Of a stretch of DNA of 32,000 bases, positions 37-22,692 are shown piece by piece. The position numbers were made by a program, and so were the translations under genes. Numbering within the stretch: the stretch's first letter is position 1; every line of letters begins with the position of its first letter. Origin of the DNA: Staphylothermus hellenicus DSM 12710 (GTDB taxonomy: Archaea; Thermoproteota; Thermoprotei_A; Sulfolobales; Desulfurococcaceae); the NCBI RefSeq assembly GCF_000092465.1, contig NC_014205.1, forward strand, positions 300,001-332,000, in the 5' to 3' direction. Under the pieces are notes generated by a model. The model had not been told where the DNA came from and ran no database searches. It worked only from the letters and a program-made list of their open reading frames with translations.

Positions 37-552
37 TCATATTTCAAGCACTTCAACAGATAAATCCTTTGTATCTAGAAGTGCTATTGTAGATTTACCA
101 GTTAAATAACCACATGTTTCTCCAGGGTTTAATAATAGTTTGTTATTAATATATTGAACTAATACTCTATGAGTATGTCCAAACAATACAGCGTCAACCC
201 CCTCGATACTAAGCAGTGTTTTAGCTAGCTTTTCAGTGTGCTCAATCCCATCATATCCATGCATTATTACAAAGTTCCTATTACCCAGATTAATAATGGA
301 TGGCCCACTATATAGTTCCCAGTTATTAGCAGTAAATAACTTATTTAACAAATATATGTCGCCGTCATTGTTTCCGAGAACACCGTATACCTTGATATCT
401 TTCAATATATTCTTCATTCTCCTGACAATGAAGGGAGAAATAATGTCTCCTAAATGAATAATTGCTTCAACACGGTGTTCTATGAATTTATTTAATGCTT
501 TATCTACGGCGTATATATTATCATGACTATCGCTCATAACACCAATTAGCAT
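37..552 (-). CDS. MJ0936/YfcE-type metallophosphoesterase (phosphodiesterase)
   Basis: 171-aa ORF with all metallophosphoesterase motifs intact: MSDSHDN (DxH), LGDIISP (GD), LGNNDGD (GNxD), IMHGY (H) and FGHTH (GHxH). Size and motif spacing match the small MJ0936/YfcE family. Confidence 0.85.
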   Translation of the reverse strand: MLIGVMSDSHDNIYAVDKALNKFIEHRVEAIIHLGDIISPFIVRRMKNILKDIKVYGVLGNNDGDIYLLNKLFTANNWELYSGPSIINLGNRNFVIMHGYDGIEHTEKLAKTLLSIEGVDAVLFGHTHRVLVQYINNKLLLNPGETCGYLTGKSTIALLDTKDLSVEVLEI

Positions 553-597: not shown

Positions 598-1197
598 TTA
601 TTCTATTTTTACCTCGTATCCCTTCTTTTTCTCTGATCTCTTGATCTTCTTCAATGTTACCTCTAATACTCCATTTTTATATGTAGCCTTCGCTGATCCA
701 GGATCTACCTCTGCAGGTAGCTCTACTTCCTTATAGTATTTCCTGTTCGTATCGCTCGCACTTATAATGAGTTTTCTTCTATCATCGCTTACTTCTAGCT
801 TGATCTTATCTTTTTCTACTCCTGGAAGCTCTGCAATAACAGTTATACTGTCATCCTGTTCAAATACATCTACTAGAGGTTCTCTTTCTTCACTAATCAT
901 TCTTTTACCTTCAACCTTTTTCACATTACCGAATTCTTCAATCATAGGTTTACCATCTGGGCCTATTGTTATTCTAAAACCATATACATAAGGACCAAAC
1001 CTCCTTGTTGGGCCGGCTTCTTCTATAAATTCCCTTGGCTCCATTGTTTCGAATTCTCGCAGTAACCTATTCATTTCCTCCTCCATTTGCCTGAATATTT
1101 CATCAAATACGTCGAAGAACCCTCTTCTACGCCGCTTATTATAGTCGTCCCATCTACTCATATAGAATATCACCTCTTGACCTGTTTGTTCATTCAT
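598..1197 (-). CDS. hsp20: Small heat-shock protein, Hsp20/alpha-crystallin family
   Basis: 199-aa ORF. The C-terminal alpha-crystallin domain reads ITVIAELPGVEKDKIKLEV...YYKEVELPAEVDPGSAKATYKNGVLEVTLKK, preceded by a charged N-terminal arm. An alternative start at M13 (1161) is possible. Confidence 0.9.
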   Translation of the reverse strand: MNEQTGQEVIFYMSRWDDYNKRRRRGFFDVFDEIFRQMEEEMNRLLREFETMEPREFIEEAGPTRRFGPYVYGFRITIGPDGKPMIEEFGNVKKVEGKRMISEEREPLVDVFEQDDSITVIAELPGVEKDKIKLEVSDDRRKLIISASDTNRKYYKEVELPAEVDPGSAKATYKNGVLEVTLKKIKRSEKKKGYEVKIE

Positions 1198-4313: not shown

Positions 4314-4393
4314 ACCTGTAGAGATAGCTTAATCAACTGATAAATTAGATAAGATTCTACAAGATATATTTGAATACTGTATTTGGTGATATA

Positions 4394-4645
4394 ATGGTTA
4401 CAGTTAAGCTAAGAGCTTTCTCAATATTCAGCGATATCTTTGGGAAAGAAGAAATTCTGAACATAGATGGTAAGATAAGTGTTAAGGATCTTGTGGATTA
4501 TCTTAAGAAGAACAATAAATTATTTGAAGAAACCATTAAACAAATCCCAGTAATTATTTTAGTTAATGGCAAGTCTGTAAATGAAGAATATGTGTTGAAG
4601 GAGAATGATGAAGTAGCAATAATACCTCCCGCATCCGGTGGGTAA
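4394..4645 (+). CDS. moaD: MoaD/ThiS-family ubiquitin-like sulfur-carrier protein (C-terminal GG)
   Basis: Small beta-grasp-like ORF ending ...IIPPASGG immediately before the stop. It sits 2 nt upstream of moaE. ATG 4394 is preferred over the TTG 4370 used by the ORF track. Confidence 0.8.
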   Translation: MVTVKLRAFSIFSDIFGKEEILNIDGKISVKDLVDYLKKNNKLFEETIKQIPVIILVNGKSVNEEYVLKENDEVAIIPPASGG

Positions 4646-4647
4646 AC

Positions 4648-5112
4648 ATGCCATATATACGTGTTGGATTAACAGAGTCAATAATAGATGTGGATTCAAT
4701 AGTTAATGAGCTAATAGAGCATACAAAAGGTCTTGGAGGTGCTATAGTTTCATTTATTGGATATGTTAAAGGCATAGTTGATGATCATAGAGTTTACGAA
4801 CTACAATATACTGCTTATCAACCATATACGGAGGAGGTTATGGAGAAGATAGTTGTGGAAGAAGTTCGTAGAAACAATTTATTGGGTGCTATAGTTATTC
4901 ATAGAATAGGTAATCTAAAACCAGGAGATCCAACAATCTATATCTTTGTATCAGCTAATACTAGGAAAGAAGCTTTCAAAGGAGCATCAGAGATTCTGGA
5001 AAGAATAAAACATGAAGCACCGATCTTCAAGCTTGAAAAAAGAGATGATGGCGAATACTGGGTCATCGGTGATGGTAGAAGAGTTGCTAGGAGAAGAGCC
5101 AAGAATACTTGA
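4648..5112 (+). CDS. moaE: Molybdopterin synthase catalytic subunit MoaE
   Basis: GAIVSFIGYVKG, HRIGNLKPGDPTIYIFVSANTRKEAF and IKHEAPIFKLE are typical MoaE blocks. The gene is adjacent to moaD. Confidence 0.9.
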   Translation: MPYIRVGLTESIIDVDSIVNELIEHTKGLGGAIVSFIGYVKGIVDDHRVYELQYTAYQPYTEEVMEKIVVEEVRRNNLLGAIVIHRIGNLKPGDPTIYIFVSANTRKEAFKGASEILERIKHEAPIFKLEKRDDGEYWVIGDGRRVARRRAKNT

Positions 5113-6076
5113 TCATTTCTACTTGCTTCTTAAAAACTACTGTTACGCAGTCGTAGTAGGAAATATGCATTCAAATAGTTTTTTAATTGGATATGTAAAG
5201 TATTGTTTAGGGAAAAATAGTATTTGGAGAGATAATCTAGGATACTATGATAGAATAGTTAACTATTATTCTCCAAGAAAAGTATATGATTCAACTCCCT
5301 GGAAAACATATATACCTTGCTACGATTCCATCATCCCAGTTATTCCCAGATCAAAAATTATTAAAATATTTAATCCAATAAATAGATTAAATGAAATAAT
5401 TTCTATGCCAAAGGATCAATTGGAACAATTAACAGCTAATCTATCAAGCATACTGTATTCGTCCATTCACAGATATGCTTTAGGAGTAACAGGATCTTTA
5501 CTTATCAAAATACATAACCCGGTTATCAGCGATATAGACATGATTGTCTATGGTTGGAGAGAATCTCTAAACATAATAGAGTTTATTAATGAAAACAAAG
5601 ACGTTTTCCCCGGTTTTACAGGGGAGAGATTGAAAAGGTGGATTTACAGCAATGCGGAATCCTCAGGTCTTCCTCCCAGTAAGGTGGAGAAACTGTATCG
5701 TAGGTGGCGTAGAGGATCATTTATGGGGAGAGATTATTCAATAATATACAATAACGGCGTCTTCAAACATTTAGATACTTGTAAAGCATGGAGAACAATT
5801 GGGCATATAACAGTAAAGGCGTACTTGATGGGCGGATTAGATGCTCTAAATTATCCGTCAAGATCAAGTATAGATCAATACTACCTAGTTAAAAACAGGG
5901 AGGAGCTGCGCAGCGATATTGAATACGTTTTATCTTTTGACGCATTATATATTGGAAAACTATTTGACGGGGGCTGGGTAATTATTAGTGGTTTATTACA
6001 GCATGAACCTTTAGAGGATAGGTATAGAATACTTGTTGGTGGCAGGGAATATAAGGGATATATTGAGCCTCTATGA
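5072..6076 (+). CDS. Pol-beta-superfamily nucleotidyltransferase, conserved-archaeal type (COG1665-like), start uncertain
   Basis: The minimal NTase signature GVTGSLLIKIHNPVISDIDMIVYG (G-S ... D-x-D; the DID codons are at 5531-5539) sits mid-protein, followed by a beta-rich C-terminal region. Possible starts are 5012, 5045, 5072 and 5165. The first three overlap the moaE 3' end. Confidence 0.6.
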   Translation: MVEELLGEEPRILDHFYLLLKNYCYAVVVGNMHSNSFLIGYVKYCLGKNSIWRDNLGYYDRIVNYYSPRKVYDSTPWKTYIPCYDSIIPVIPRSKIIKIFNPINRLNEIISMPKDQLEQLTANLSSILYSSIHRYALGVTGSLLIKIHNPVISDIDMIVYGWRESLNIIEFINENKDVFPGFTGERLKRWIYSNAESSGLPPSKVEKLYRRWRRGSFMGRDYSIIYNNGVFKHLDTCKAWRTIGHITVKAYLMGGLDALNYPSRSSIDQYYLVKNREELRSDIEYVLSFDALYIGKLFDGGWVIISGLLQHEPLEDRYRILVGGREYKGYIEPL

Positions 6077-6687
6077 GAGGGACGGCTTATATGGTATCAA
6101 AAATACTAGCTATTTCAAATATTAATGGTAGAGAAGATCTTATCCCATACATTGTTTACCTTGCTAGTACCGAAAAAATCGATATAGTATTGTTTTGTGG
6201 AAACATTGTTTCTCCACTAATTATAGAGGAGATAAGTAAAAGAATAAAGGGCCGCGTACTCGGAGTTGCGGGTAATCTTGATGATCCCTCCGTGATAAAA
6301 ATGTTGAAATCTATTAATGGATTTATTGATGGAAGAATAGTTGAGGTATATGGATTAAATATTGGTGGGGTAGGGTTTAATCCAGAGCTATCAGTTAATA
6401 GGTTGTTAAGGGAAAATAAGGATTTAGATATACTTGTTTCTTTTTATCCAAGCATAAAAGCTTCTATTAACAACGGTGTTGGCATGATTGATCGCTTGAT
6501 TAAAACATTACATCCTCAAATAGTAGTTTTTGGTAGAGGATATAGGAAATGCTTAGTTAATGACAAATATGTTTTTCCAGGCGAAGGCCATAAAGGCTTT
6601 TACGCATTGATCAAGCTTGGAAAAAAAGATTATGAAGCTAAAATATACTGTCGTCATTTTCAAGATGTTGTTATGGATAATTATTAA
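6073..6687 (+). CDS. Metallophosphoesterase-fold protein with metal ligands replaced (predicted pseudoenzyme)
   Basis: It aligns block by block with the active MJ0936-type enzyme at 37-552, but the ligands are substituted: SDSHD->SNING, GD->GN, GNND->GNLD, MHGY->SFYP and GHTH->GRGY. The ATG overlaps the upstream stop (ATGA). Confidence 0.6.
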   Translation: MRGTAYMVSKILAISNINGREDLIPYIVYLASTEKIDIVLFCGNIVSPLIIEEISKRIKGRVLGVAGNLDDPSVIKMLKSINGFIDGRIVEVYGLNIGGVGFNPELSVNRLLRENKDLDILVSFYPSIKASINNGVGMIDRLIKTLHPQIVVFGRGYRKCLVNDKYVFPGEGHKGFYALIKLGKKDYEAKIYCRHFQDVVMDNY

Positions 6688-6726: not shown

Positions 6727-7608
6727 ATGATATTGTTTGATTGGGGAACATATAATGCATTAAACACTTTAACTAAAGCTGCAGTACTTGGAATGAGACT
6801 AACAGAAATACCTCCACGGGATTTTTCAAGGAAAACTAGGGGTTTAGACTATTTTGAAGCTTACCGTGATTTTGCAACTAAAGCATTTACAACAATCATT
6901 GCTCACGGTCCATACTATAATCTAGTTAGTGATCATCCTGAGATCGCTAAACGTATATTGAAAGCTATGAGAGCAGCTGTTAAAAAAGCAGCTATGGCAG
7001 GAGCTTCTATATTCAATGTTCATCTTGGTTGGAGGGTATTTATGGATGATAGAGATTTGGAAGCAGTGGCTGATATGGTTAAGAAAATGTTGGAGGTTGC
7101 TCCTGAAAACATGTATATTAGTTTAGAAACAACCTATACTCGGAGACAAATAGGGAGTCTAGATGAAATTAAGTCGATTATAGAGATGGTCGGTAGTGAT
7201 AGGGTTATTCCAAGTGTTCAGCTAGAAAACATGTTCATGTATGAGACAAGAATTGATCAACATGGAAACTTTATTCAGGCTGATAAACAAGTCAACAAAG
7301 ACTTCTGGCTCAATGTACTGAGAAAAACACTTGAAATTAGCAAGGGGTATTTAAGCCTTAGATTCAGCCAGGTAACCGGTGTCTATTTCGGGAGGAGACT
7401 GCTTAAAAAGAGAACCCCGCTAGGTAAAGGTTATCCAAGCATACAACCGTTAGCAGAGGCATTGGCTCAATTCATGGTTAGAGAAGTTAGAGATAAAGGA
7501 TTATCCCTTAAAATGCACATAATATATACAGGTCCCCCGGAGACAAAATATGAGGATACAATAGATCTTTATGCATCGATTATGAGGAGAGTTGTTCAAT
7601 ACATATAA
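6727..7608 (+). CDS. Xylose-isomerase-like TIM-barrel protein (AP endonuclease family 2 / EndoIV-like)
   Basis: IIAHGPYYNLVS, ASIFNVHLGW and ISLETTY resemble the first three metal-ligand strands of endonuclease IV / sugar-phosphate isomerase TIM barrels. The C-terminal half is less recognisable. Confidence 0.55.
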   Translation: MILFDWGTYNALNTLTKAAVLGMRLTEIPPRDFSRKTRGLDYFEAYRDFATKAFTTIIAHGPYYNLVSDHPEIAKRILKAMRAAVKKAAMAGASIFNVHLGWRVFMDDRDLEAVADMVKKMLEVAPENMYISLETTYTRRQIGSLDEIKSIIEMVGSDRVIPSVQLENMFMYETRIDQHGNFIQADKQVNKDFWLNVLRKTLEISKGYLSLRFSQVTGVYFGRRLLKKRTPLGKGYPSIQPLAEALAQFMVREVRDKGLSLKMHIIYTGPPETKYEDTIDLYASIMRRVVQYI

Positions 7609-7655
7609 TAATCCATAAAATAATTATTTTTACACCAATCCACTATCCTATACTT

Positions 7656-9506
7656 GTGTGTAGAAAATTGACTGGTTTTAATCTTAAAGTAAAGCCGAGA
7701 GACTATCAAATAGAAGCTGCTAAGTGGGCATTATCAAACAAAAGATCAACAATTGTTATGCCTACAGGATCAGGTAAAACATTGATAGCAGTTTTATTCA
7801 GCAAAGAGCTTTTGGAGAAGAAGCTTGCAAATAAAGTGCTCGTATTAGAACCGACAAGAATACTGGTAGAACAAACGGCTCGATACTTTGAAAAAACACT
7901 AGGTATTAAAGCACTATCTATACATGGACGGTATCCGCCGGAGAAAAGAATCGAATTGTGGAGAAAAGCCAAAGTTGCTGCTGCAACACCTGAAACAGCA
8001 TTAAATGATGTAAAACAAGTTATCCAGAACAACTATGATGCAATAATTGTTGATGAATGCCATCACACAACCGGAAAAGATGCATATGCCAAATTCATGA
8101 AAATAACAGAAAAAGTTTTCAAGTGGAGACTAGGATTATCAGCTCATATCCCTAAATCACGCAGACATGAAATAGAAAGGTATATTGGAAAAATACGGAT
8201 ATGGAGCTGGGCTGATGAGAGAATAAGAAAGTATGTGCCTGATTGGATCGGTGAAATATATGAAGCAGAACTTAACGATGCTGAGAAACAAGTTCTAGAG
8301 GGGCTCGAGGAGGCAAGACTGGAATATACTGGTAAGTATAGAGGATTAGTAAATCTAGCTATTAGGTGGTTTGTAAGGGATGGAGCACTTGCTCTTAGGG
8401 AAAGCTTAGAGAAAGAAACACTGCTAGCGTCTATACTATCACATATTAAGCCCATGCTTGAAAACAGAAAGGTTAGGCCTTTACATAAACTAGATGCTTT
8501 GAAAAGGGTGCTAAATGATCATGAAGGCTTTAATAAAGCAATCATATTCGTTGATAGAGTTATTGTTGCTGAGTATCTTGGAAAGAAGCTAATGCATTAT
8601 AATCCCGTAATTATCGTTGGTAAGACCAGGTTAGGAACGGATCTTAGAGAGGTATTGAGGAGAGCGCATAGTTCGGAAACAAGAATAGTAGTTTCTACAA
8701 GTGCTGGTGAAGAAGGAATAGATCTTCCAGAAGCAGATCTACTTATAATATGGAGTAATGTAGCTAGCCCGTTAAGGTTTATTCAAAGACATGGTAGAAT
8801 ATTAAGGCTAACAGGGAAGAAGGGATTAAAATTTGTGGCATACATTGCTACACCCGATACACCAGACATGGATAGTTTATTGGATGCATTAGAGCTTGCT
8901 AGAAAGAATGGTGTAGATGTTCCTATCGATGAAGAAACATTAGAGGCTCTTTGGAGAAGAACCACGAGAAATAGGATACTAAGTGTTTTATCCGGGAAAC
9001 CAATGCCTCTTGAATGGATTAGTGAAATTACTGGTATGCCCAGAGACCTTGTTGAGAAAGCTATTAAGAGGTTGGAGGATAAGGGACTAGTTATATACAT
9101 ATATACCTTCCTAGGTAAAACCTATGCATTAGTAGATGACCTGTTTATTCTCAAAGAAAACTTTGAAGAATACTTAACCCCTGATACAAGCTTGGCAGCA
9201 AGAATTAAGCCATATGTGGAAAATAAGGAGTTAAGAATGGTTTCTGGCACTTATAACCAGGTTATAACAAAGCTTATTAGGCTTCTTAGAAGATACGGAG
9301 AATTCACAAGGATCTCGGCATCCCTACAAATACCCTTAGAAACAGGGGCTTTACAACAAATAATGCTTCACTATACTTTTCGGATCAATAATGAAGAAGT
9401 CCTTGAAGCTATAATAAGAAACATTTATTCAGCAAGCAAATACTATAGATTCATCACTAAGACACCCTGGCCTAGTAATAATGCTGAACATTATGGTGAA
9501 TCATAA
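7656..9506 (+). CDS. SF2 helicase, Hef/FANCM/MPH1-like core (COG1111-like) with C-terminal winged-helix and unknown tail; no nuclease domain
   Basis: Motif I is VMPTGSGKT, motif II is DECHH, motif III is LGLSAH, then STSAGEEGIDLPEADLLI and motif VI QRHGRILR. The N-terminal lobe closely resembles euryarchaeal Hef (PRDYQ..PTGSGKTLIA..VLVLEPTRILV..AKVAAATPET). A helical insert lies between the RecA lobes. A wHTH-like segment spans about aa 436-492 (nt 8961-9131). GTG start. Confidence 0.85.
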   Translation: MCRKLTGFNLKVKPRDYQIEAAKWALSNKRSTIVMPTGSGKTLIAVLFSKELLEKKLANKVLVLEPTRILVEQTARYFEKTLGIKALSIHGRYPPEKRIELWRKAKVAAATPETALNDVKQVIQNNYDAIIVDECHHTTGKDAYAKFMKITEKVFKWRLGLSAHIPKSRRHEIERYIGKIRIWSWADERIRKYVPDWIGEIYEAELNDAEKQVLEGLEEARLEYTGKYRGLVNLAIRWFVRDGALALRESLEKETLLASILSHIKPMLENRKVRPLHKLDALKRVLNDHEGFNKAIIFVDRVIVAEYLGKKLMHYNPVIIVGKTRLGTDLREVLRRAHSSETRIVVSTSAGEEGIDLPEADLLIIWSNVASPLRFIQRHGRILRLTGKKGLKFVAYIATPDTPDMDSLLDALELARKNGVDVPIDEETLEALWRRTTRNRILSVLSGKPMPLEWISEITGMPRDLVEKAIKRLEDKGLVIYIYTFLGKTYALVDDLFILKENFEEYLTPDTSLAARIKPYVENKELRMVSGTYNQVITKLIRLLRRYGEFTRISASLQIPLETGALQQIMLHYTFRINNEEVLEAIIRNIYSASKYYRFITKTPWPSNNAEHYGES

Positions 9507-10121
9507 TTGGTTTCCATTATAAGCATTGAAGATTTCATGAAATTAATAAGGAATTATAAATCAATATCCATGATTATTGGTTCAGGACTAGAATATTCTT
9601 TAGGTCTTAGCGGATTCTATGATTACAAACCTGCTAGACAGAAAATCATAAATGAAAACATTATTGTTAATTGTTCATCGCTTAATAAGAAGGTGCTTGA
9701 AATAATTAATTTATTTACTGAAACATTAAAAAGTGATCGTTTCCAATCAGCTATAATTACAAGCCCATACTGTCTATATAGATGCATGTGTGATCAAGAA
9801 AAATTGTTGAAAGACAAAATTATTCCGCTCATCGGCTGTTTTAAATGTAGTGATTGCTGCATAGACGAGCCAGAATATAAGGGATTAGGTGAAAAAGTTA
9901 ATTATAAATCACTAGCTAGAAGCATTGTCGAGGTTACTTCTGCTGAAGCCCTTATAATCACTGGCTTCACACCTACTCTATCCCCAGCGAACATGTTGCC
10001 GTTAATAGCTAAATTCGGTAAGCCAAAGATATTCTTAGTAGATACATTTAATAACCCATATATTTCTATTGTCGACTACTATGTTGAAACACCAAGTTAT
10101 AAGCTGTTTAAGGTTCTCTAG
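9507..10121 (+). CDS. Sir2-fold protein lacking canonical catalytic/NAD-binding residues (predicted inactive sirtuin homolog)
   Basis: 204-aa ORF. IIGSGLEYSLGLSGFYDY, AIITSPYCLY, IIPLIGCFKCSDCC and LIITGFTPTLSPANMLPL..KIFLVD follow the order and spacing of the sirtuin blocks GAGIS..GIPDFR, ITQNIDxLH, ELHG..CxxC and viGTSl.V.PA..L...iiN. TTG 9507 directly follows the helicase stop. ATG 9537 is an alternative start. Confidence 0.5.
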   Translation: MVSIISIEDFMKLIRNYKSISMIIGSGLEYSLGLSGFYDYKPARQKIINENIIVNCSSLNKKVLEIINLFTETLKSDRFQSAIITSPYCLYRCMCDQEKLLKDKIIPLIGCFKCSDCCIDEPEYKGLGEKVNYKSLARSIVEVTSAEALIITGFTPTLSPANMLPLIAKFGKPKIFLVDTFNNPYISIVDYYVETPSYKLFKVL

Positions 10122-16550: not shown

Positions 16551-17825
16551 TTAACCCCACAAGAAAACTATTAGCTCTCTTAACAGCTTTGATAACATTG
16601 AATATGCTTCTTCTATGCTATAAAAGTAGTTTTCAATATAATATATTAAATTATTGCAGAAAACGGTGTATAGCCGAGAAATAATAATGGTTGCTTGACT
16701 CCTTCCCCCCATATAGGTTGGGGGTTTTAAACCAAGCGAGGTGAATAGTAAATCCATTATGACTGAAGGATTTCTATCAACTACATATATAAAGCCTATG
16801 TAGAGAAAGAGTAATGTTAAGCTTAAATATAATCCTCTACGAGATCGTATATTATTAGTGATTTTTAAAGCTTTAAACCCGAGGCTTTGCCTAGGTATTA
16901 ATATATTAAGAAATCTATCTCTGAGAATACGATATATTATTGTTGATACAACAAACCATACTGTTATCCATACAATATATGAAAGCCATGTAATCTGAAT
17001 AATGTCTCTAATAATAGATATTACTGGATAAAGTAACCCGTATATATAGAAGAATACAACGAATAAGATCGATCTTACATAGATTTTCTGAAACGGATCT
17101 TTGCCTTTCAATAAATCATGGGCTTGCGAATATACTAGTGTTCTTATACGGTTTATAGCGAAATCAATGTTTAGGAATAAAGTATCGCTTATCAAACCAG
17201 TTATATAATTATCAATTATGTAGTAAATTACAAATATTATTAAGGAGAAAAGAATAAGTGATCCTACATGTGTAGAAATAAATACTTCATAAAATGTTTG
17301 AAAAATGCTCGGAGTTACAGATTCTATGTAGGAGTAAACATAAATGACCGTAGATGCTACAATATAGCTAATAAATAAATATGTAGCATAGATTCCCCCA
17401 ATTATCGTTATTGAAAGTAATAGTGCCTTAATAGATAATAAATGTCTTCTACGAATAGATCGTTTCAATAAGACATCTGTGAATGTATAAGAGAGCAATA
17501 ACCATATAGATGCTATAACAGCTGTTGTAAAGATACTAGGTCCTACGGCTTTTTCATATACAAGTAACCCACTTACTAAGACATAGTATAAGCTCGACAA
17601 ATATATTTTCCTAGCAGCAATACCTATAAACCATAAGAGGATCAATATAAACAATATTATTTGAATAATACCAGCTCTTATTATATAGCTGAGATTTACA
17701 AAAATATTTAAGAAATAAAGATTTAATAACAACACTACTACTATGCTTAGCCTCGACTGGAAAACAGGGTCTCCGAGTTTCTTTGAAAAGTTTTCAATTA
17801 ATCCTCTACTAATATTGTTTCTCAT
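16551..17825 (-). CDS. Polytopic integral membrane protein, family not recognised
   Basis: 424-aa ORF that is almost entirely hydrophobic I/L/F/Y-rich segments (about 10 predicted helices by eye). Its ATG overlaps the DUF58 stop (ATGA). Confidence 0.7.
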   Translation of the reverse strand: MRNNISRGLIENFSKKLGDPVFQSRLSIVVVLLLNLYFLNIFVNLSYIIRAGIIQIILFILILLWFIGIAARKIYLSSLYYVLVSGLLVYEKAVGPSIFTTAVIASIWLLLSYTFTDVLLKRSIRRRHLLSIKALLLSITIIGGIYATYLFISYIVASTVIYVYSYIESVTPSIFQTFYEVFISTHVGSLILFSLIIFVIYYIIDNYITGLISDTLFLNIDFAINRIRTLVYSQAHDLLKGKDPFQKIYVRSILFVVFFYIYGLLYPVISIIRDIIQITWLSYIVWITVWFVVSTIIYRILRDRFLNILIPRQSLGFKALKITNNIRSRRGLYLSLTLLFLYIGFIYVVDRNPSVIMDLLFTSLGLKPPTYMGGRSQATIIISRLYTVFCNNLIYYIENYFYSIEEAYSMLSKLLRELIVFLWG

Positions 17826-19165
17826 ACTATCACAGCCCTATAAGACTCTATTAACCTATAGATCATAACATATATATCATCAGGCCCTACACTAACCACT
17901 TTAACACCTCGACGCCCAAGATATTCTCGTATTTGCTTACTCAAAACATACCTATCAAGAGTTAAGCCCGAAAATATTGCAGATTCTAATCCTTTCAAAT
18001 ATTTCTCCTCATATAGTTCTGGAATCAATTGGACAATAAAGACTAGATGACCCAAGCTTCTAAGCTTGCTTGATGCATTAATAAGTTCGTCAGCTTCATA
18101 TTTATTGAGCAGTGTTGTTAAAACAAAAAATAATGTCTTAGCCCTCCTAGGCAGTTTTGATGCCTCATTCAATATTAGCTCACCTAGGCTTATACCTGGT
18201 TCTTTAATGTCCCAATCAATGTTTGATAAGGAATTAATTATTCTAGTAAAATGTATGCGTCCCCTGCCATAGCCTGATCTAACTATTTTTCCGCCACGAA
18301 TAACTACGCCGACCCAATCTCCTCTTTCTAATAGGATTTTTGAGAGGCCAGCAGATATTCTAGCCATATCTTCTAGAGGGGTACTACCTATTATTCCTCT
18401 CATAGAATCAGGAGATACATCTATAACGAATACTACACTCAGATTTGCTTCACGCTCGAATTCTTTCACATATAATTTTCTTAGTCGAGCAAAGCTTTTC
18501 CAATCAATTAATCTATAATCATCTCCTGGAAAATATTCTCTAAGCTCATAGAATTCCTGGCCAAGCCCTCTCATCCTCGCTTTACCCATCCCCAGCCCTC
18601 TTCTCGTCCAGACACTCAATACTCTCCTAGGAAAAGCTGCGGGTTTAGGTTTTATATTTACTATTTTCTTCTCTGGATCAATAGTGGTCTTATAATTAAA
18701 TAATCCAAGGGGATCCTTAACAATAATTTCTAAGCCGTGAAAGGTGTGTTTGCCAAGAATAGTTTCAACTATGTATTCATATTCAAATCCACTATATGGA
18801 AGAAGAGTTGCAGAAACAGTATTACTTCCCTCAACAAGCTTGAAAAGACTTGGATATAGATCATTTATGCTAACATAGAATAATGGTATACTTGAATTAT
18901 TTCTAAACACAATTTTTATCCTTACCTTATTTTTCTCGACGAGAGGATCAAGAAACTCTCGTCTAATCTCTAATCGATATATTTGACGAGCAGATAATTC
19001 AACTAGTAGTCTTGTTCCAAGAATAATCGCTATAACAATTCCAACAATATATAGTGTATAAGCCGTTATAGTTTTATTGAGCCAAATATCCAGAGATGCT
19101 AGGAGCCCTGCCAAACCCAGTAATACATATAGGTTAGATGTTGCAGAGATGCCGCTTTCACGCAT
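17822..19165 (-). CDS. DUF58 family protein (vWA-like), N-terminally membrane-anchored
   Basis: The DUF58 hallmark is GQEFYELREYFPGDDYRLIDWKSFARLRKLYVKEFEREANLSVVFVIDVS. Two N-terminal TM helices and a beta-sandwich-like segment precede it. The start overlaps the moxR stop by 1 nt. Confidence 0.85.
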   Translation of the reverse strand: MRESGISATSNLYVLLGLAGLLASLDIWLNKTITAYTLYIVGIVIAIILGTRLLVELSARQIYRLEIRREFLDPLVEKNKVRIKIVFRNNSSIPLFYVSINDLYPSLFKLVEGSNTVSATLLPYSGFEYEYIVETILGKHTFHGLEIIVKDPLGLFNYKTTIDPEKKIVNIKPKPAAFPRRVLSVWTRRGLGMGKARMRGLGQEFYELREYFPGDDYRLIDWKSFARLRKLYVKEFEREANLSVVFVIDVSPDSMRGIIGSTPLEDMARISAGLSKILLERGDWVGVVIRGGKIVRSGYGRGRIHFTRIINSLSNIDWDIKEPGISLGELILNEASKLPRRAKTLFFVLTTLLNKYEADELINASSKLRSLGHLVFIVQLIPELYEEKYLKGLESAIFSGLTLDRYVLSKQIREYLGRRGVKVVSVGPDDIYVMIYRLIESYRAVIV

Positions 19166-20145
19166 TAGCTCTGCACACCTGGTGTTGGGACAGGTGTTTC
19201 GTTTAATATATCTTCAATTATTTGATCCGTTGTTATACCTTCAAATTCAGCTTCAGGCCTCAATATTATACGGTGCCTGAGAACGGGTTTGGCAACAAAT
19301 TTAATATCGTCTGGAATAACATATGATCTTCCATCAATTAATGCATTAGCCTTACTTGTTAATAATAAGCTTATTGAAGCTCTTGGTGAACCACCTAAAC
19401 GTACATGTGGGTGTTCACGTGTTTTCTTAACTATGCTTACAATATAATCTATTAATTCTTCGCTAACATTAACTTTTGGAAGCATAGCCTTTATTGCTAG
19501 TATTTCCTCAGCCGATGTAACAGGTAAAATATTGAATTTTTCAATATAATGTATTCTTCTAAGAACTTCTTTTTCCTCATCAGTATCGGGATATGAAACA
19601 ATTATTTTTAAGAGAAACCTATCCAGCTGGGCTTCAGGCAGTGGAAAGGTGCCTTCCATCTCTATAGGGTTCATAGTTGCAATTACAATGAAGGGTTCGG
19701 GAAGCTTAAAAGTTATCCCTTCTATAGTAACTTGTTTCTCCTGCATTGCTTCTAATAATGCTGACTGGGTTCTAGGGCTTGCTCTATTTATTTCATCAAA
19801 CAATACTATGTTAGCAAATATTGGGCCTTTACGAGGCCTGAAATCATTAACTCTAGGATCAAACACTAGAGTTCCAATAATATCGCTTGGCAAAAGATCC
19901 GGGGTTGCTTGTATTCTTGAATATGATAAGCTAAGAGATCTAGCAATTGTTTTAGCAATAAGAGTCTTAGCTACGCCTGGAACCCCCTCTAATAATATGT
20001 GTCCCCCAGCATATATTGATATTAAGATGTACCGTATAACATCTTTTTTACCAACAATAATCTTCGATGCATTCTCTATTATTTTCCTAGATATACTTGA
20101 TGCAAAACCGGGATCAAAATCTTTATTTGATAAGGTATTTTGCAT
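19165..20145 (-). CDS. moxR: MoxR-family AAA+ ATPase
   Basis: Walker A is LEGVPGVAKT and Walker B is VLFDEINRA. RIQATPDLLPSDIIG, PRTQSALLEAMQEKQVTIEG, ATMNPIE..GTFPLPEAQLDRF and the C-terminal lid are also present. ATG 20145 is preferred. The track ORF starts at TTG 20181. Confidence 0.9.
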   Translation of the reverse strand: MQNTLSNKDFDPGFASSISRKIIENASKIIVGKKDVIRYILISIYAGGHILLEGVPGVAKTLIAKTIARSLSLSYSRIQATPDLLPSDIIGTLVFDPRVNDFRPRKGPIFANIVLFDEINRASPRTQSALLEAMQEKQVTIEGITFKLPEPFIVIATMNPIEMEGTFPLPEAQLDRFLLKIIVSYPDTDEEKEVLRRIHYIEKFNILPVTSAEEILAIKAMLPKVNVSEELIDYIVSIVKKTREHPHVRLGGSPRASISLLLTSKANALIDGRSYVIPDDIKFVAKPVLRHRIILRPEAEFEGITTDQIIEDILNETPVPTPGVQS

Positions 20146-21580
20146 CCCTGAACCCTTCCTTCTTAAGTATTGTATATCCAAGTAGGTTTAGTAAATCCTC
20201 AACTAATAAAACATATTTAATCATCGTTCTTCTCCAATTAAACACTATGGGTAAACGGCTTTTACCATTAATCTTTAAGTATACCCGGTACAGCCATAAT
20301 AGTTTTTTAAATTTCTTCCGATCAACTATGCCAAGTAATCGTAGTTTATCATAGGATTTACTAGCCAAAACTTCTTCGAGATCAAAATTCTTAACAATAA
20401 TAAATGCTTGTCTCAATAATTTCCAATATCTTTTTATTAGTATTTTCTCCCTATTCTTCAGAAACTTTTTATCTAAGAGGTTAGCTGTTATAATAGTCTC
20501 AATAATGATCTTATATTCCCTGACTTTCTCGTGTTTAAACTCTACTAATTCTTTAAGATCAAATACAGACTTCATCAGGCCGATCAAGCCTAATATAGTT
20601 AATAATAATGCGATAGGGCCTAGAATGCTGTATTGTGATATGATTGCATCTATGAATTGATCAGCTTGTTCAAGGAAATTAGCAAACAATAGGAAAAGTA
20701 TGCTTGAATGGAAAGGTATTGTTTGCTGAATATTTTTTCTACGATATAAATAATTAGGAATAATTACTCGTTTACTTTTTTCATCAGATAATTGTTTCAC
20801 ATAGTTATATATAATTTCTGAAACAGTTAAGTTTCGGCCTAGCTCAGTATTTATTAATGGAGAACTATCACTCATCACGAATAGTTTAGATCTAGGATAT
20901 ACTATAATAATTCCTGTTATCCATTCATTAAATCCAGTTTTTTCACGGGTTTTAATAAAATATGCTATTTCTTCATCATCGATTTTACCATTAGAGTTTA
21001 GATCGAGAATACCGTATGTGATAGAAATAATGTTTACAGGTCTATTTATTCTAGTATCATTAACGATGAAACTAGCCCAATTAAGACGTACATATTTCGT
21101 CTCGTTATCTAGAGATTTTATTATTGTTAATGGATATTGGGGATCTTGAGTTAACATCATATCTAGGATCATTGTTCCATTTACATGTATATGGAATCTA
21201 TGCAGTAAATTGTTGCTGGTAATGTTTTCATCTAGTACGGCAATATTTATTTTTCCGTTAAGGAAATATTTCTCTATTAAATCAAGATCTGTATTATTTG
21301 CTGATAATGATTTATCAGGACCTATAATAAGGAGCAATCCTCCCCTGTTCAGCTCATTTATTAATTCACTATTTTTGTTAACTATTACAACATTGTATCC
21401 TTCATTTCTAAGTCTTTGAACAAGTATGCTTGTGCCGGACCAGTCAAGGGATAGAGGACTACAGGTTCCAACATATAGTGAAGCCTCTACTTTTATAGTG
21501 ATTCCAGGTATGTAGAACGCTGCTAGTAATCCTATTATTAAAAGAAAAATTATGAATAGCTTAAGCCTCAACAGGATCAC
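20123..21580 (-). CDS. Membrane protein, DUF4350-like extracytoplasmic domain
   Basis: N-terminal TM, then LDWSGTSILVQRLRNEGYNVVIV, which resembles the DUF4350 core seen next to MoxR/DUF58 genes. Further TM helices and a cytoplasmic helical tail follow. The GTG start overlaps the upstream stop (GTGA). Confidence 0.55.
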   Translation of the reverse strand: MILLRLKLFIIFLLIIGLLAAFYIPGITIKVEASLYVGTCSPLSLDWSGTSILVQRLRNEGYNVVIVNKNSELINELNRGGLLLIIGPDKSLSANNTDLDLIEKYFLNGKINIAVLDENITSNNLLHRFHIHVNGTMILDMMLTQDPQYPLTIIKSLDNETKYVRLNWASFIVNDTRINRPVNIISITYGILDLNSNGKIDDEEIAYFIKTREKTGFNEWITGIIIVYPRSKLFVMSDSSPLINTELGRNLTVSEIIYNYVKQLSDEKSKRVIIPNYLYRRKNIQQTIPFHSSILFLLFANFLEQADQFIDAIISQYSILGPIALLLTILGLIGLMKSVFDLKELVEFKHEKVREYKIIIETIITANLLDKKFLKNREKILIKRYWKLLRQAFIIVKNFDLEEVLASKSYDKLRLLGIVDRKKFKKLLWLYRVYLKINGKSRLPIVFNWRRTMIKYVLLVEDLLNLLGYTILKKEGFRDAKYLIK

Positions 21581-22692
21581 CTATTTTTACTAATAAATAG
21601 ACTCCTCAGCTCACGTTCAACCTTACTAATTAATGCTTCATCAACCTCGTATTTACCATAAACATTTTCCTCATAGATCCTTGTTACATGTTCTCCGATA
21701 GTTCTCAGATCTTCAATTCTTATTTTACTTAATAATTCACGTGGTGTTTCAGAAGGTTTTCTCCTATATCCATGTCTCTTCGCAATACTATACCATTTAT
21801 AGTATAGCATTATTGCTCGAGATAATGTTGTTTTTCCTATTCTGGCCTTTATAATCATTTTTTTCTCATCTATTTTTGTAAATAATATATCTAAGTATTG
21901 TCTTATTGGTTGGCGAACATAGTATAATACGGCGAGAACAAGGGATCCCATAATTATATATAATATTATGTTGAAGTATTTGCTGAAATTAAATAATGGA
22001 ATAGTTGGGGGATTAAATACACTAGCATTGGAGACACCGATATTGGGGAAATTGAAAATATTAACAAGCGGATTTTCTTGGACTCCACCTTCAAGGGGAT
22101 TTCTTGGATTAATAGTCTCTGATCCGGATGTCTCTCTAACACCGCCCTTATATTGTTTCATATAATTAATAAGCTCTGAGATAAGATCATTATTTACCAC
22201 TTCTCCATGTCTAAGCTTATAAGCATCTTGGATTAGCGATTCATTGTTTAGTAGCTTGCCTAACTCGTATAGGTAACTAGTAAGATTAACTTCCACCCCA
22301 TTCTCAGTTAGATTTTGTATAGAATCGATTAACGAGATAGTTTTTGCTAAATCCATATTAGAGTTTAGATCACTATTGTATTTTGTTTTTAAATAATTAT
22401 TTAACTCGTTCAACAACATATATGCTTTTTCATAATCGCCATTCTGTATTGACTGATTTATTTCTGATACATAACTATTAACTATGGAGTCATTTAATTG
22501 TTTTAGCAAGGAGAGCTGTTGTAGTAGTTTATTTTCATCCATGGGATAGGTATCGGTAGGTACGTATTTATCGTTTCTTTGAACCTCTCCATATGTAATC
22601 ATGGATATGAGAGTCATAAATACAAATACTGTGAGAAAGAACCACACATATATTTTTTTCAATACTATTTTGGCCAACATTATATTTTTCAT
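21577..22692 (-). CDS. Membrane protein with C-terminal DUF4129 domain
   Basis: N-terminal TM, a long N/L/S-rich helical ectodomain, a second TM, then LSRAIMLYYKWYSIAKRHGYRRKPSETPRELLSKI....IGEHVTRIYEENVYGKYEV, the DUF4129 pattern. Confidence 0.7.
   Translation of the reverse strand: MKNIMLAKIVLKKIYVWFFLTVFVFMTLISMITYGEVQRNDKYVPTDTYPMDENKLLQQLSLLKQLNDSIVNSYVSEINQSIQNGDYEKAYMLLNELNNYLKTKYNSDLNSNMDLAKTISLIDSIQNLTENGVEVNLTSYLYELGKLLNNESLIQDAYKLRHGEVVNNDLISELINYMKQYKGGVRETSGSETINPRNPLEGGVQENPLVNIFNFPNIGVSNASVFNPPTIPLFNFSKYFNIILYIIMGSLVLAVLYYVRQPIRQYLDILFTKIDEKKMIIKARIGKTTLSRAIMLYYKWYSIAKRHGYRRKPSETPRELLSKIRIEDLRTIGEHVTRIYEENVYGKYEVDEALISKVERELRSLFISKNR

What the first reader, a model, noticed from the sequence alone, without database searches (positions are those of the whole stretch)
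5012..6687. Pol-beta nucleotidyltransferase translationally coupled to a metallophosphoesterase pseudoenzyme
The ORF at 5012/5072-6076 carries an intact minimal NTase signature, GS...DxD (GVTGSLL...ISDIDMIVYG). Its stop overlaps the ATG of the next gene (ATGA at 6073-6076).

The downstream protein aligns block for block with the active MJ0936-type phosphodiesterase in this same window (37-552). Almost every metal ligand is substituted:
- D-x-H becomes N16-x-N18.
- GD becomes G43-N44.
- GNND becomes GNLD.
- The His of MHG becomes Phe.
- GHTH becomes GRGY.

An active nucleotide-transferring enzyme paired with a catalytically dead phosphodiesterase fold suggests a writer plus binder/regulator arrangement, or an obligate heterodimer. 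This would parallel the inactivated phosphoesterase B-subunits of replicative polymerases.
Basis: partly seen in the sequence, partly recalled or inferred. Interest (0 to 1): 0.65.

Follow-up and report, generated by a model that had tools for sequence, protein, structure and literature searches.

The report
Nucleotidyltransferase paired with dead phosphoesterase-fold partner
A heat-loving archaeon keeps an apparently active nucleotide-transferring enzyme of unknown function next to a phosphatase-like protein that has lost its metal-binding residues; the pair is conserved across its order, and relatives of the enzyme sit in clusters for one-carbon cofactor metabolism.

Summary
Window 5072-6076 encodes a 334-aa protein whose GxTGS...SDxD pol-beta nucleotidyltransferase (NTase) signature is conserved family-wide. 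Window 6073/6091-6687 encodes a Metallophos_3-type metallophosphoesterase (MPE) fold lacking every His/Asn metal ligand.

One caveat: the ATGA overlap exists, but the ATG at 6091 is at least as likely the true start. That gives a 14-nt gap.

Both proposed refutations fail:
- Ligand loss is clade-wide (35 distinct orthologs). The gene is under purifying selection (dN/dS 0.13-0.23).
- The MPE-like gene directly follows the NTase in 30 of 31 informative Desulfurococcales loci, spaced -11 to +27 nt. The genes on either side of the pair vary.

New findings:
- The NTase belongs to an uncharacterised archaea-wide family (818 cluster representatives; Thermoproteota, Bathyarchaeia, Nitrososphaerales, Asgard).
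- Outside Desulfurococcales it never has the MPE partner.
- There it sits among methanofuran/tetrahydromethanopterin genes, most often CitG, and often as 2-4 tandem paralogs.

Best reading: an active small-molecule NTase plus a non-catalytic MPE-fold subunit, co-transcribed here with moaD-moaE. Physical association, substrate and the polymerase B-subunit analogy remain untested.

The parts
4370..4645 (+). moaD (ThiS/MoaD-family sulfur carrier). First gene of the co-directional run moaD-moaE-NTase-MPE-like.
   Evidence: PF02597 at 1.9e-12; TIGR01687 moaD_arch at 58.6 bits against a cut-off of 49.5. MoaD-MoaE lies directly upstream of the NTase in the window and in 13 of 32 related Desulfurococcales loci.
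4648..5112 (+). moaE (molybdopterin synthase catalytic subunit). Its 3' end overlaps the NTase start by 41 nt.
   Evidence: PF02391 at 7.6e-28. The same kind of overlap (38-56 nt) is called in L001, L004, L006 and L007.
5072..6076 (+). 334-aa pol-beta-type nucleotidyltransferase of an uncharacterised archaeal family. It has three predicted domains. Alternative start: TTG at 5084. The ORF extension back to 5012 is not supported.
   Evidence: 23 close homologues of 318-347 aa plus one 186-aa fragment. 818 cluster representatives at E<=1e-3. AF2 model pLDDT 92.6. PF01909 NTP_transf_2 is hit by 5 of 18 close members and 7 of 10 distant ones, three of them above the cut-off. The window protein itself has no Pfam or meaningful NCBIfam hit.
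5108..5371 (+). N-terminal beta-rich domain (residues 13-100). It carries the family-wide conserved D14, H33, K43, Y44, W52, R61 and Y66. Presumed substrate-binding.
   Evidence: Secondary structure of the model; conservation over 67 sequences.
5483..5539 (+). NTase catalytic signature: G138-V-T-G-S142 ... H148 ... S153-D154-I-D156.
   Evidence: Read directly. Invariant or >=93% conserved in 67 sequences. Also present in all 140 family members of at least 300 aa in the clade-B loci.
5792..6070 (+). C-terminal five-stranded barrel with an OB-like strand order (b1-b3, helix, b4-b5; residues 241-333). Conserved P262, D/E290, G307, G323, E326.
   Evidence: Model secondary structure. Foldseek gives only weak domain-level matches to SSB, Rrp4/Csl4/Rrp40, Stn1 and editosome OB folds.
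6073..6687 (+). MPE-fold protein without metal ligands (Metallophos_3-like). 204 aa from the ATG at 6073 (ATGA overlap), or more probably 198 aa from the ATG at 6091.
   Evidence: PF14582 at 38.2 bits. AF2 pLDDT 81.6. Foldseek 2yvt 9.1e-10, 1uf3 9.7e-8, 1s3l 2.3e-6. 35 orthologues carry no His at any ligand position. dN/dS 0.13-0.23.
6118..6126 (+). Degenerate motif I: N16-I-N18 in place of D-x-H.
   Evidence: Across 35 orthologues position 18 is never His. Position 16 is Asp in only 5.
6199..6204 (+). Motif II: G43-N44 in place of G-D.
   Evidence: Asp in 24 and Asn in 11 of 35 orthologues.
6271..6282 (+). Motif III: G67-N-L-D70 in place of G-N-H-D/E. D70 is invariant.
   Evidence: position 69 is never His; D70 is present in 35 of 35.
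6532..6543 (+). Motif V: G154-R-G-Y157 in place of G-H-x-H. Motif IV His is replaced by F124 (6442-6444).
   Evidence: no His at positions 124, 155 or 157 in any of 35 orthologues.
37..552 (-). Comparator only, not part of the module: canonical YfcE/MJ0936-type phosphodiesterase with DSH, GD, GNND, MHG and GHTH.
   Evidence: PF12850 at 5.6e-32; TIGR00040 at 106.5 bits; sequence.

Best explanation
This is a conserved two-gene module of Desulfurococcales archaea. By sequence identity the window is Staphylothermus-like.

Gene 1 encodes a pol-beta-type NTase with its catalytic signature intact. It belongs to an uncharacterised, archaea-wide, three-domain family: an N-terminal beta domain rich in conserved polar and aromatic residues, the NTase core, and a C-terminal OB-like barrel.

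Gene 2 starts within -11 to +27 nt of the stop of gene 1. It encodes a Metallophos_3-like MPE fold that cannot build the canonical two-metal centre, because all four His ligands and the Asn of GNH are gone. It is nevertheless kept under purifying selection. I therefore read it as a non-catalytic subunit that binds a ligand or scaffolds the NTase.

Shown:
- The signature, the fold and the ligand loss.
- Purifying selection on both genes.
- Conserved adjacency and spacing.

Inferred:
- The two proteins are co-translated and associate physically.
- The NTase acts on a small phosphorylated metabolite, a cofactor precursor, rather than polymerising nucleic acid. It would do so by attack of a hydroxyl or phosphate on the alpha-phosphate of an NTP or triphospho-ribosyl donor, releasing pyrophosphate.

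Two observations support the small-molecule inference. Sister clades of the family sit next to CitG, RimK-type ligases and methanofuran/tetrahydromethanopterin genes. In this genome the pair is the tail of a moaD-moaE-NTase-MPE run.
For: NTase:
- GS...DxD is read in the sequence.
- It is invariant across 67 relatives.
- NTP_transf_2 is hit in relatives.
- Weak Foldseek matches go to CdnE, TUT4, PAP, Tailor and the CCA-adding enzyme.

MPE fold and ligand loss:
- Fold support.
- No canonical ligand His in any of 35 orthologues.

Selection:
- dN/dS is 0.13-0.23 for the MPE-like gene and 0.12-0.29 for the NTase, over 7 pairs.

Pairing:
- The MPE-like gene directly follows the NTase in 30 of 31 informative Desulfurococcales loci.
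- Spacing is -11 to +27 nt.
- The upstream neighbour varies (MoaE, HAD or QRPTase) and so does the downstream one (CoA ligase or AP-endonuclease-like), but the pair is never split.

Family context:
- 35 of 55 dereplicated clade-B loci carry Ftr, MCH, FwdA, FwdC, MTD, MtdB, MfnB or CitG within 6 kb. CitG is present in 18.

Mobility and defence:
- No PADLOC hit and uniform base composition.
Against: - No direct evidence of a complex.
- The whole neighbourhood is broadly syntenic in Desulfurococcaceae, so some of the adjacency is inherited gene order rather than functional constraint.
- One lineage (L014) has moaD-moaE-NTase without the partner downstream.
- None of the cofactor-pathway genes that flank clade-B members occurs in 282 kb of clade-A loci. 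The cofactor link therefore reaches the window protein only through 21-30% sequence identity to those members.
- No family-wide third catalytic carboxylate could be placed on the NTase core.
- The OB-like barrel and the tRNA-related genes a few kb downstream would fit a nucleic-acid substrate.
- D70 (invariant), D140 (at least 90% conserved in 11 orthologues) and Asp at motif II in 24 of 35 orthologues leave room for a non-canonical metal site.
Confidence: 0.55

Rival explanations
1. The NTase is an RNA or tRNA 3'-end modifying or repair enzyme. The OB-like domains hold the nucleic acid, and the MPE-like protein is a degenerate end-processing partner that only binds phosphorylated ends.
For: - Foldseek domain-level matches to OB folds of SSB, exosome cap proteins and Stn1, and to terminal uridylyl/adenylyl transferases and the CCA-adding enzyme.
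- tRNA_bind, ThiI, TYW3 and D-aminoacyl-tRNA deacylase lie 4-9 kb downstream in the same syntenic block.
Against: - All those Foldseek matches are weak (E>=0.08, probability <=0.41).
- The tRNA genes are not adjacent, lie on mixed strands, and are separated from the pair by a variable cassette.
- In 35 of 55 loci of the sister clade, the family sits among C1-cofactor genes rather than RNA genes.
Confidence: 0.15
2. The NTase is a molybdopterin-related nucleotidyltransferase, doing MobA/MocA-like or MPT-adenylylating chemistry. That would explain the moaD-moaE-NTase operon here and the proximity of sister clades to tungsten/molybdenum formylmethanofuran dehydrogenase genes.
For: - moaE overlaps the NTase start in the window and in 13 of 32 related loci.
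- FwdA, a FwdB/D-like cluster (that label is my guess; its representative had no Pfam hit) and FwdC are neighbours in 10-14 of 55 clade-B loci.
Against: - More than half of the clade-A loci have no moaDE next to the pair.
- In clade B the closest and most frequent neighbours are CitG, RimK, MCH and Ftr, which do not use molybdopterin.
- No similarity to MobA, MogA or MoaB families was detected.
Confidence: 0.12
3. The MPE-like protein is still an enzyme. It would use a non-canonical, perhaps single-metal, site built from the retained Asp residues. It would hydrolyse the pyrophosphate or a phosphoester product of the NTase.
For: - D70 is invariant, D140 is at least 90% conserved in the 11-orthologue alignment, and the motif II Asp is kept in 24 of 35 orthologues.
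- Its nearest solved relatives, aq_1956 and TT1561, show the same degenerate motifs I and II in the aligned stretches.
Against: - None of the four His ligands is present in any of 35 orthologues, and the Asn of GNH is kept in only 10.
- The residues at those positions are not conserved among orthologues, which argues against a replacement catalytic site.
Confidence: 0.12
4. The adjacency is only inherited gene order within a very syntenic region, and the two proteins work independently.
For: - A block of about 15 genes is collinear across most of the loci.
- One lineage lacks the partner at this position.
- The wider NTase family works without any MPE partner.
Against: - Gene gain and loss happened repeatedly on both sides of the pair but never between the two genes.
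- The spacing stays at -11 to +27 nt over NTase divergence down to about 40% identity.
Confidence: 0.06

Closest known systems
Pol-beta-like nucleotidyltransferase superfamily (Pfam NTP_transf_2, PF01909)
   Same: - hG[GS]x9-13Dh[DE]h signature.
- Predicted alpha/beta core.
- Relatives reach the Pfam cut-off.
   Different: - The three-domain architecture, with a conserved N-terminal beta domain and a C-terminal OB-like barrel, matches no solved structure as a whole: best Foldseek E = 0.076.
- No curated family covers it.
- A third catalytic carboxylate could not be located.
CitG plus CitX/MdcG: triphosphoribosyl-dephospho-CoA synthase and the NTase-fold transferase that attaches the product with release of pyrophosphate (my own knowledge of the citrate lyase and malonate decarboxylase systems)
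   Same: In sister clades the NTase is next to a CitG homologue in 18 of 55 loci, and the two overlap in Vulcanisaeta. This suggests the same two-step logic.
   Different: - No CitG in the window or in any Desulfurococcales locus.
- No detectable sequence match to the CitX or MdcG families.
- Here the partner is an MPE-fold protein.
Metallophos_3 proteins aq_1956 (PDB 2yvt) and TT1561 (PDB 1uf3)
   Same: - Best sequence and fold matches.
- In the aligned stretches they likewise have Asn-x-Lys or Asn-x-Met instead of DxH, and GN at motif II.
   Different: - They are bacterial structural-genomics proteins of unknown function, 228-260 aa.
- aq_1956 still has His in the motif V region (VGHVGKGH).
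- No NTase partner is known to me for either.
MPE-fold pseudoenzymes: Vps29, and the B-subunits of eukaryotic DNA polymerases alpha, delta and epsilon
   Same: - MPE fold with lost metal ligands, used as a protein-binding subunit.
- Both appear among the Foldseek matches: Vps29 at 1.2e-4 and the Pol alpha B-subunit at 0.02.
   Different: - B-subunits carry their own OB domain and bind B-family polymerases. Vps29 is a retromer scaffold.
- Here the partner is a pol-beta NTase and the OB-like domain is on the NTase chain.
- The resemblance is by analogy, not by descent.
MJ0936/YfcE phosphodiesterases (TIGR00040), such as the window's own gene at 37-552
   Same: Same fold, and a shared G[DN]xxSP...GNxD block.
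   Different: TIGR00040 scores 20.3 bits against a cut-off of 56.25, and all catalytic His residues are missing.

Membership tests
Pol-beta-like NTase superfamily | hG[GS] motif followed 9-13 residues later by [DE]h[DE]h | tested here: met
   G141-S142, then 11 residues, then D154-I-D156-M. Conserved in 67 relatives.
Pol-beta-like NTase superfamily | Third catalytic carboxylate on a neighbouring strand of the core sheet | tested here: inconclusive
   D221 is acidic in 17 of the 18 clade-A sequences aligned but not in other clades. The family-wide conserved acidic residues are D14, D115, E118, D/E290 and E326, all outside the expected strand.
Pol-beta-like NTase superfamily | Significant match to a curated NTase profile (PF01909) | tested here: inconclusive
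   The window protein has no hit. Five of 18 close relatives hit, best E = 4e-5. Three distant relatives score above the 21-bit cut-off.
Pol-beta-like NTase superfamily | NTase core fold | tested here: inconclusive
   The model is confident (pLDDT 92.6), but Foldseek matches to CdnE, TUT4, PAP, Tailor and CCA enzymes have E = 0.2-1.5.
Calcineurin-like metallophosphoesterase superfamily, Metallophos_3 (PF14582) | Profile score above the curated cut-off | tested here: met
   38.2 bits against 28.2.
Calcineurin-like metallophosphoesterase superfamily, Metallophos_3 (PF14582) | Beta-sandwich MPE fold | tested here: met
   Foldseek 2yvt at 9.1e-10 (TM 0.70), 1uf3 at TM 0.72 and rmsd 3.1-3.2, 1s3l at 2.3e-6.
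Catalytically active metallophosphoesterases | Metal-ligand motifs DxH, GD, GNH[DE], H, GHxH | tested here: not met
   The window has NxN, GN, GNLD, F and GRGY. In 35 orthologues there is no His at any of the ligand His positions.
YfcE/MJ0936 phosphodiesterase family (TIGR00040) | Score above the curated cut-off | tested here: not met
   20.3 bits against 56.25.
DNA polymerase B-subunit / PolD DP1 type | OB domain and PDE domain on one chain, bound to a replicative polymerase catalytic subunit | tested here: not met
   The MPE-like chain has 198-204 aa with no extra domain. The neighbouring gene is a pol-beta NTase. The Pol alpha B-subunit appears only at Foldseek E = 0.02.
CitG plus CitX/MdcG-type prosthetic-group or cofactor tail system | CitG homologue encoded with the NTase | tested here: not met
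   No CitG in the window or in the 32 Desulfurococcales loci searched with it (282 kb in all). It is met only in the sister clade, in 18 of 55 loci.
Minimal NTase toxin-antitoxin or anti-phage defence NTases | Match to defence-system models, a HEPN or other known partner, and a mobile or variable location | tested here: not met
   No PADLOC hit. The position is a conserved core-genome one and the base composition is uniform.

The most novel reading that the evidence does not exclude
The NTase family would be the missing phosphodiester-forming enzyme of methanopterin-type (or methanofuran-type) cofactor tail synthesis. It would work after a CitG-like triphosphoribosyl transferase, coupling for example hydroxyglutarate to the ribose 5-phosphate with release of pyrophosphate. 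In Desulfurococcales, which lack the C1 pathway genes at this locus, the same chemistry would build a lineage-specific modified pterin. There it would need a dedicated, catalytically dead MPE-fold subunit that binds the phosphorylated intermediate. That would make an obligate NTase-pseudophosphoesterase heterodimer, a kind of complex not described before.
Probability: 0.2. Interest if true: 0.85.

Novelty: new variant of a known kind. Interest (0 to 1): 0.55.

Why it matters
To my knowledge, MPE-fold pseudoenzymes are known mainly from eukaryotes (Vps29, polymerase B-subunits). A clade-wide, selected, ligand-free MPE protein tied to an NTase would be a prokaryotic example with a different partner.

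More broadly, the NTase belongs to a large archaeal family (818 cluster representatives). Its members are named only 'hypothetical protein', 'predicted nucleotidyltransferase' or 'nucleotidyltransferase domain-containing protein'.

Its repeated placement beside CitG, RimK-type ligases and methanofuran/tetrahydromethanopterin genes gives concrete candidates for biosynthetic steps of these C1 carriers. As far as I know, the enzymes for those steps are still unassigned. My literature searches found no paper that treats the family.

Tried and rejected
- **Wide genome scans.** The search for related loci with the broader alignments A6 and A7 failed because no stretch was conserved enough. The genome scan therefore used A1 and reached only Desulfurococcales.
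- **Solved structures.** Sequence and profile searches with the NTase gave only chance hits. Whole-chain Foldseek found no significant match.
- **Curated families.** NCBIfam has nothing meaningful for the window NTase or for 10 distant members.
- **Literature.** Searches for COG1665, COG2129, TT1561, aq_1956, Metallophos_3, CitG with methanopterin or H4MPT, and hydroxyglutarate with methanopterin found nothing that bears on this family. The 2005 paper on methanopterin gene islands is not held.
- **Defence or toxin-antitoxin reading.** Rejected.
- **Inactive tandem paralogues.** Rejected. The idea was that tandem paralogues in other clades play the role the MPE protein plays here, but all of them keep GS...DxD.
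- **Strain-specific decay of the MPE gene.** Rejected.
- **Promoter/terminator scanner.** Not used, because it models bacterial sigma-70 sites.
Full report
**1. What is in the window**

The region is a co-directional gene run:
- moaD, 4370-4645
- moaE, 4648-5112
- an ORF at 5012/5072-6076
- an ORF at 6073-6687
- a xylose-isomerase-like TIM barrel, 6727-7608
- an XPB/Rad25-like helicase, 7656-9506

The NTase is 87% identical to a Staphylothermus marinus protein. The protein identical to the second ORF lies on a 1,580,347-bp contig. The window therefore comes from a Staphylothermus-like genome.

**2. The NTase**

The start is at 5072.
- Homologues are 318-347 aa long.
- Conservation begins at L13-D14 counted from 5072.
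- The start is thus 5072, or possibly the TTG at 5084. Either overlaps moaE by 29-41 nt.
- The 5012 extension has no support.

The signature is GVTGS (5483-5497) and SDID (5528-5539).
- In 18 close relatives, G138, T140, G141, S153, D154 and D156 are invariant.
- In 67 relatives down to 21% identity, G138, G141, S142, S153 and D154 are invariant and D156 is kept in 93%.

The window protein has no Pfam hit and no meaningful NCBIfam hit. PF01909 NTP_transf_2 is matched over exactly this region by 5 of 18 close relatives and 7 of 10 distant ones. Three of those score above the curated cut-off.

The AF2 model is confident (pLDDT 92.6) and shows three parts:
- a beta-rich N-terminal domain (about residues 13-100);
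- the NTase core (about 102-230);
- a C-terminal barrel with OB-like strand order (about 241-333).

Foldseek finds no whole-chain match in the PDB. It gives only weak domain-level hits, to OB folds and to CdnE, TUT4, PAP, Tailor and CCA-adding enzymes.

Family-wide conserved polar residues cluster in the N-terminal domain: D14, H33, K43, Y44, W52, R61 and Y66. Others are H148, D/E290 and E326. I could not place a third catalytic carboxylate.

**3. The MPE-like protein**

Family and fold:
- PF14582 Metallophos_3 scores 38.2 bits against a cut-off of 28.2.
- The nearest solved sequences are aq_1956 (2yvt) and TT1561 (1uf3).
- The AF2 model (pLDDT 81.6) matches 2yvt at 9.1e-10, 1uf3 at TM 0.72 and MJ0936 at 2.3e-6.
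- Further down the Foldseek list are the known MPE pseudoenzymes Vps29, GAP50 and the Pol alpha B-subunit.

All listed substitutions are present. Over 35 distinct orthologues:

| Canonical ligand | Window residue | Across 35 orthologues |
|---|---|---|
| His of DxH | N18 | never His |
| His of GNH | L69 | never His |
| His of motif IV | F124 | never His |
| Both His of GHxH | R155, Y157 | never His |
| Asp of DxH | N16 | Asp in 5 |
| Asn of GNH | N68 | Asn in 10 |
| Asp of GD | N44 | Asp in 24, Asn in 11 |
| Asp after GNH | D70 | Asp in 35 |

The canonical two-metal site therefore cannot form anywhere in the clade. In the aligned stretches shown, aq_1956 and TT1561 also lack DxH and carry GN at motif II.

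The gene is not decaying. dN/dS is 0.13-0.23 in seven close pairs, the same range as the NTase at 0.12-0.29.

**4. Start codon and coupling**

ATGA at 6073-6076 exists. Three things favour the ATG at 6091 instead:
- The public protein for this gene has 198 aa.
- Orthologue N-termini align to the methionine at 6091.
- GAGG lies about 10 nt upstream of 6091. Reading this as a Shine-Dalgarno-like site rests on my own knowledge.

Either way the genes are 4 nt overlapping or 14 nt apart. In 30 related loci the best candidate start lies -11 to +27 nt from the NTase stop. Co-transcription is very likely. Strict translational coupling is plausible but unproven.

**5. Synteny**

- Nine loci were fetched by exact protein (eight distinct neighbourhoods; L002 repeats L001), and 23 more by a genome scan. 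All are Desulfurococcales.
- A profile of the MPE-like protein finds it directly downstream of the NTase in every informative locus but one. That is 30 of 31.
- The two loci without it are L023, whose contig ends at the NTase stop, and L014, which has unrelated small ORFs downstream.
- The region is a long collinear block. Even so, the upstream neighbour varies (MoaE, HAD or QRPTase), and so does the downstream one (CoA ligase, or the AP-endonuclease-like/helicase/204-aa cassette).
- The pair itself is never split.

**6. The wider family (new)**

- A profile search of 1.84 billion cluster representatives gives 818 hits at E<=1e-3 and 459 at E<=1e-10. Nearly all of the 150 listed span the full length.
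- Named members come from Desulfurococcaceae, Vulcanisaeta, other Thermoproteota, Bathyarchaeia, Nitrososphaerales and Promethearchaeota.
- They are named 'hypothetical protein', 'predicted nucleotidyltransferase' or 'nucleotidyltransferase domain-containing protein'.
- Sequence motifs split the family into clades. The window belongs to the YRRWRRG clade.

Members of the largest other clade ('clade B') never have an MPE-like neighbour. Their contexts are:
- **Vulcanisaeta:** FwdA- and FwdC-like genes, MCH, a RimK ligase, a CitG homologue overlapping the 3' end of the NTase, an ATP-grasp gene, MfnB, an AA-kinase gene and a Hydantoinase_A gene.
- **A Thermoproteota locus:** an MtdB-like gene, an F420_ligase-like gene, MfnB and an AA-kinase gene.
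- **A Promethearchaeota locus:** an F420_ligase-like gene overlapping the NTase start, and MCH downstream.

I then analysed 80 metagenome loci. I called ORFs, clustered them by BLASTP and labelled the clusters by Pfam. Of 55 dereplicated loci of at least 5 kb:
- 35 carry at least one of Ftr, MCH, FwdA, FwdC, MTD, MtdB, MfnB or CitG.
- Individual counts are CitG 18, FwdA 14, Ftr 13, MCH 12, RimK 10 and FwdC 10.
- 32 hold 2-4 diverged paralogues of the NTase side by side. All of these keep GS...DxD.

None of these pathway genes occurs in 282 kb of Desulfurococcales loci, including the whole window.

**7. Interpretation**

Solid:
- An intact NTase signature.
- A ligand-free but selected MPE fold.
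- A conserved, tightly spaced pair in one archaeal order.

Inferred, step one: the MPE-like protein is a non-catalytic subunit. Its likely role is to bind a phosphorylated ligand or to stabilise the NTase.

Inferred, step two: the NTase acts on a small molecule.
- CitG with an NTase-fold transferase is the known logic for making and attaching a triphosphoribosyl-activated group. This is my own knowledge of CitG/CitX and MdcB/MdcG.
- Tetrahydromethanopterin carries an alpha-ribosyl 5-phosphate that is esterified to hydroxyglutarate.
- The trio CitG-like, NTase and RimK-type ligase would fit synthesis of that tail.
- This is a hypothesis for the sister clade. It reaches the window protein only through homology.
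- In the window, the operon link to moaD-moaE offers a second pterin-related reading.

Rivals are given with their weights in the rival explanations: an RNA-end enzyme, residual MPE activity, and adjacency without function.

**8. Comparison and novelty**

- The NTase is a new, uncharacterised family within a known superfamily.
- The partner is a Metallophos_3-type MPE fold that fails the active-site test.
- The polymerase B-subunit parallel fails as membership and holds only as analogy.
- I know of no described system that pairs a pol-beta NTase with an MPE pseudoenzyme, and the searches in the held literature found none.
- I rate it a new variant of a known kind, of moderate interest. Interest would rise if the cofactor link or an obligate complex were confirmed.

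Noticed in passing
Metagenome loci L039-L118, e.g. L100 2419-7053, L061, L072, L094: In Bathyarchaeia-type contigs the NTase family occurs as 2-4 diverged paralogues (about 30% identity to each other) side by side, in 32 of 55 dereplicated loci. All of them keep GS...DxD.
   Followed up: partly
L010 4001-6062 (Vulcanisaeta); clade-B loci generally: A CitG (triphosphoribosyl-dephospho-CoA synthase family) homologue overlaps or flanks the NTase. RimK-type ligases, MCH, Ftr, Fwd subunits, MfnB and an ECF S-component recur nearby. This suggests a role in methanopterin or methanofuran tail synthesis.
   Followed up: partly
window 6727-10121: A cassette of an AP_endonuc_2-type TIM barrel, an XPB/Rad25-like helicase and a 204-aa ORF with no Pfam hit lies between the MPE-like gene and the CoA ligase. 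It is present in the window and in ten of the related Desulfurococcales loci, with one further locus cut off after the first of the three genes, and absent from others.
   Followed up: partly
window 37-552 (-) and 598-1197 (-): A canonical YfcE/MJ0936 phosphodiesterase with all five motifs sits next to an HSP20 gene. The same pair lies about 3-4 kb upstream of the NTase in many related loci.
   Followed up: partly
window 16551-22692 (-): A MoxR-type AAA_3 ATPase (19165-20181), a DUF58 protein (17822-19165), a DUF4129 protein (21577-22692) and two ORFs without Pfam hits form one co-directional cluster.
   Followed up: no
window 25142-30250 (-): A 1702-aa S8 subtilase with Ig-like domains. From memory, it may be related to the S-layer-associated protease described for Staphylothermus.
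   Followed up: no
Alignment A6, proteins P0050, P0058, P0062, P0071, P0099: Some family members have SDIN instead of SDID, so the second catalytic Asp is replaced by Asn. They may be inactive or use a different metal geometry.
   Followed up: no
L014 3296-6151: One Desulfurococcaceae lineage has moaD-moaE-NTase followed by three small unrelated ORFs instead of the MPE-like gene. Whether the partner sits elsewhere in that genome is unknown.
   Followed up: partly
PDB 2yvt (aq_1956) and 1uf3 (TT1561): In the aligned stretches shown, the two solved Metallophos_3 structures lack DxH (KNFKE and SNPMG) and have GN at motif II. Degenerate sites may be widespread in that Pfam family.
   Followed up: partly
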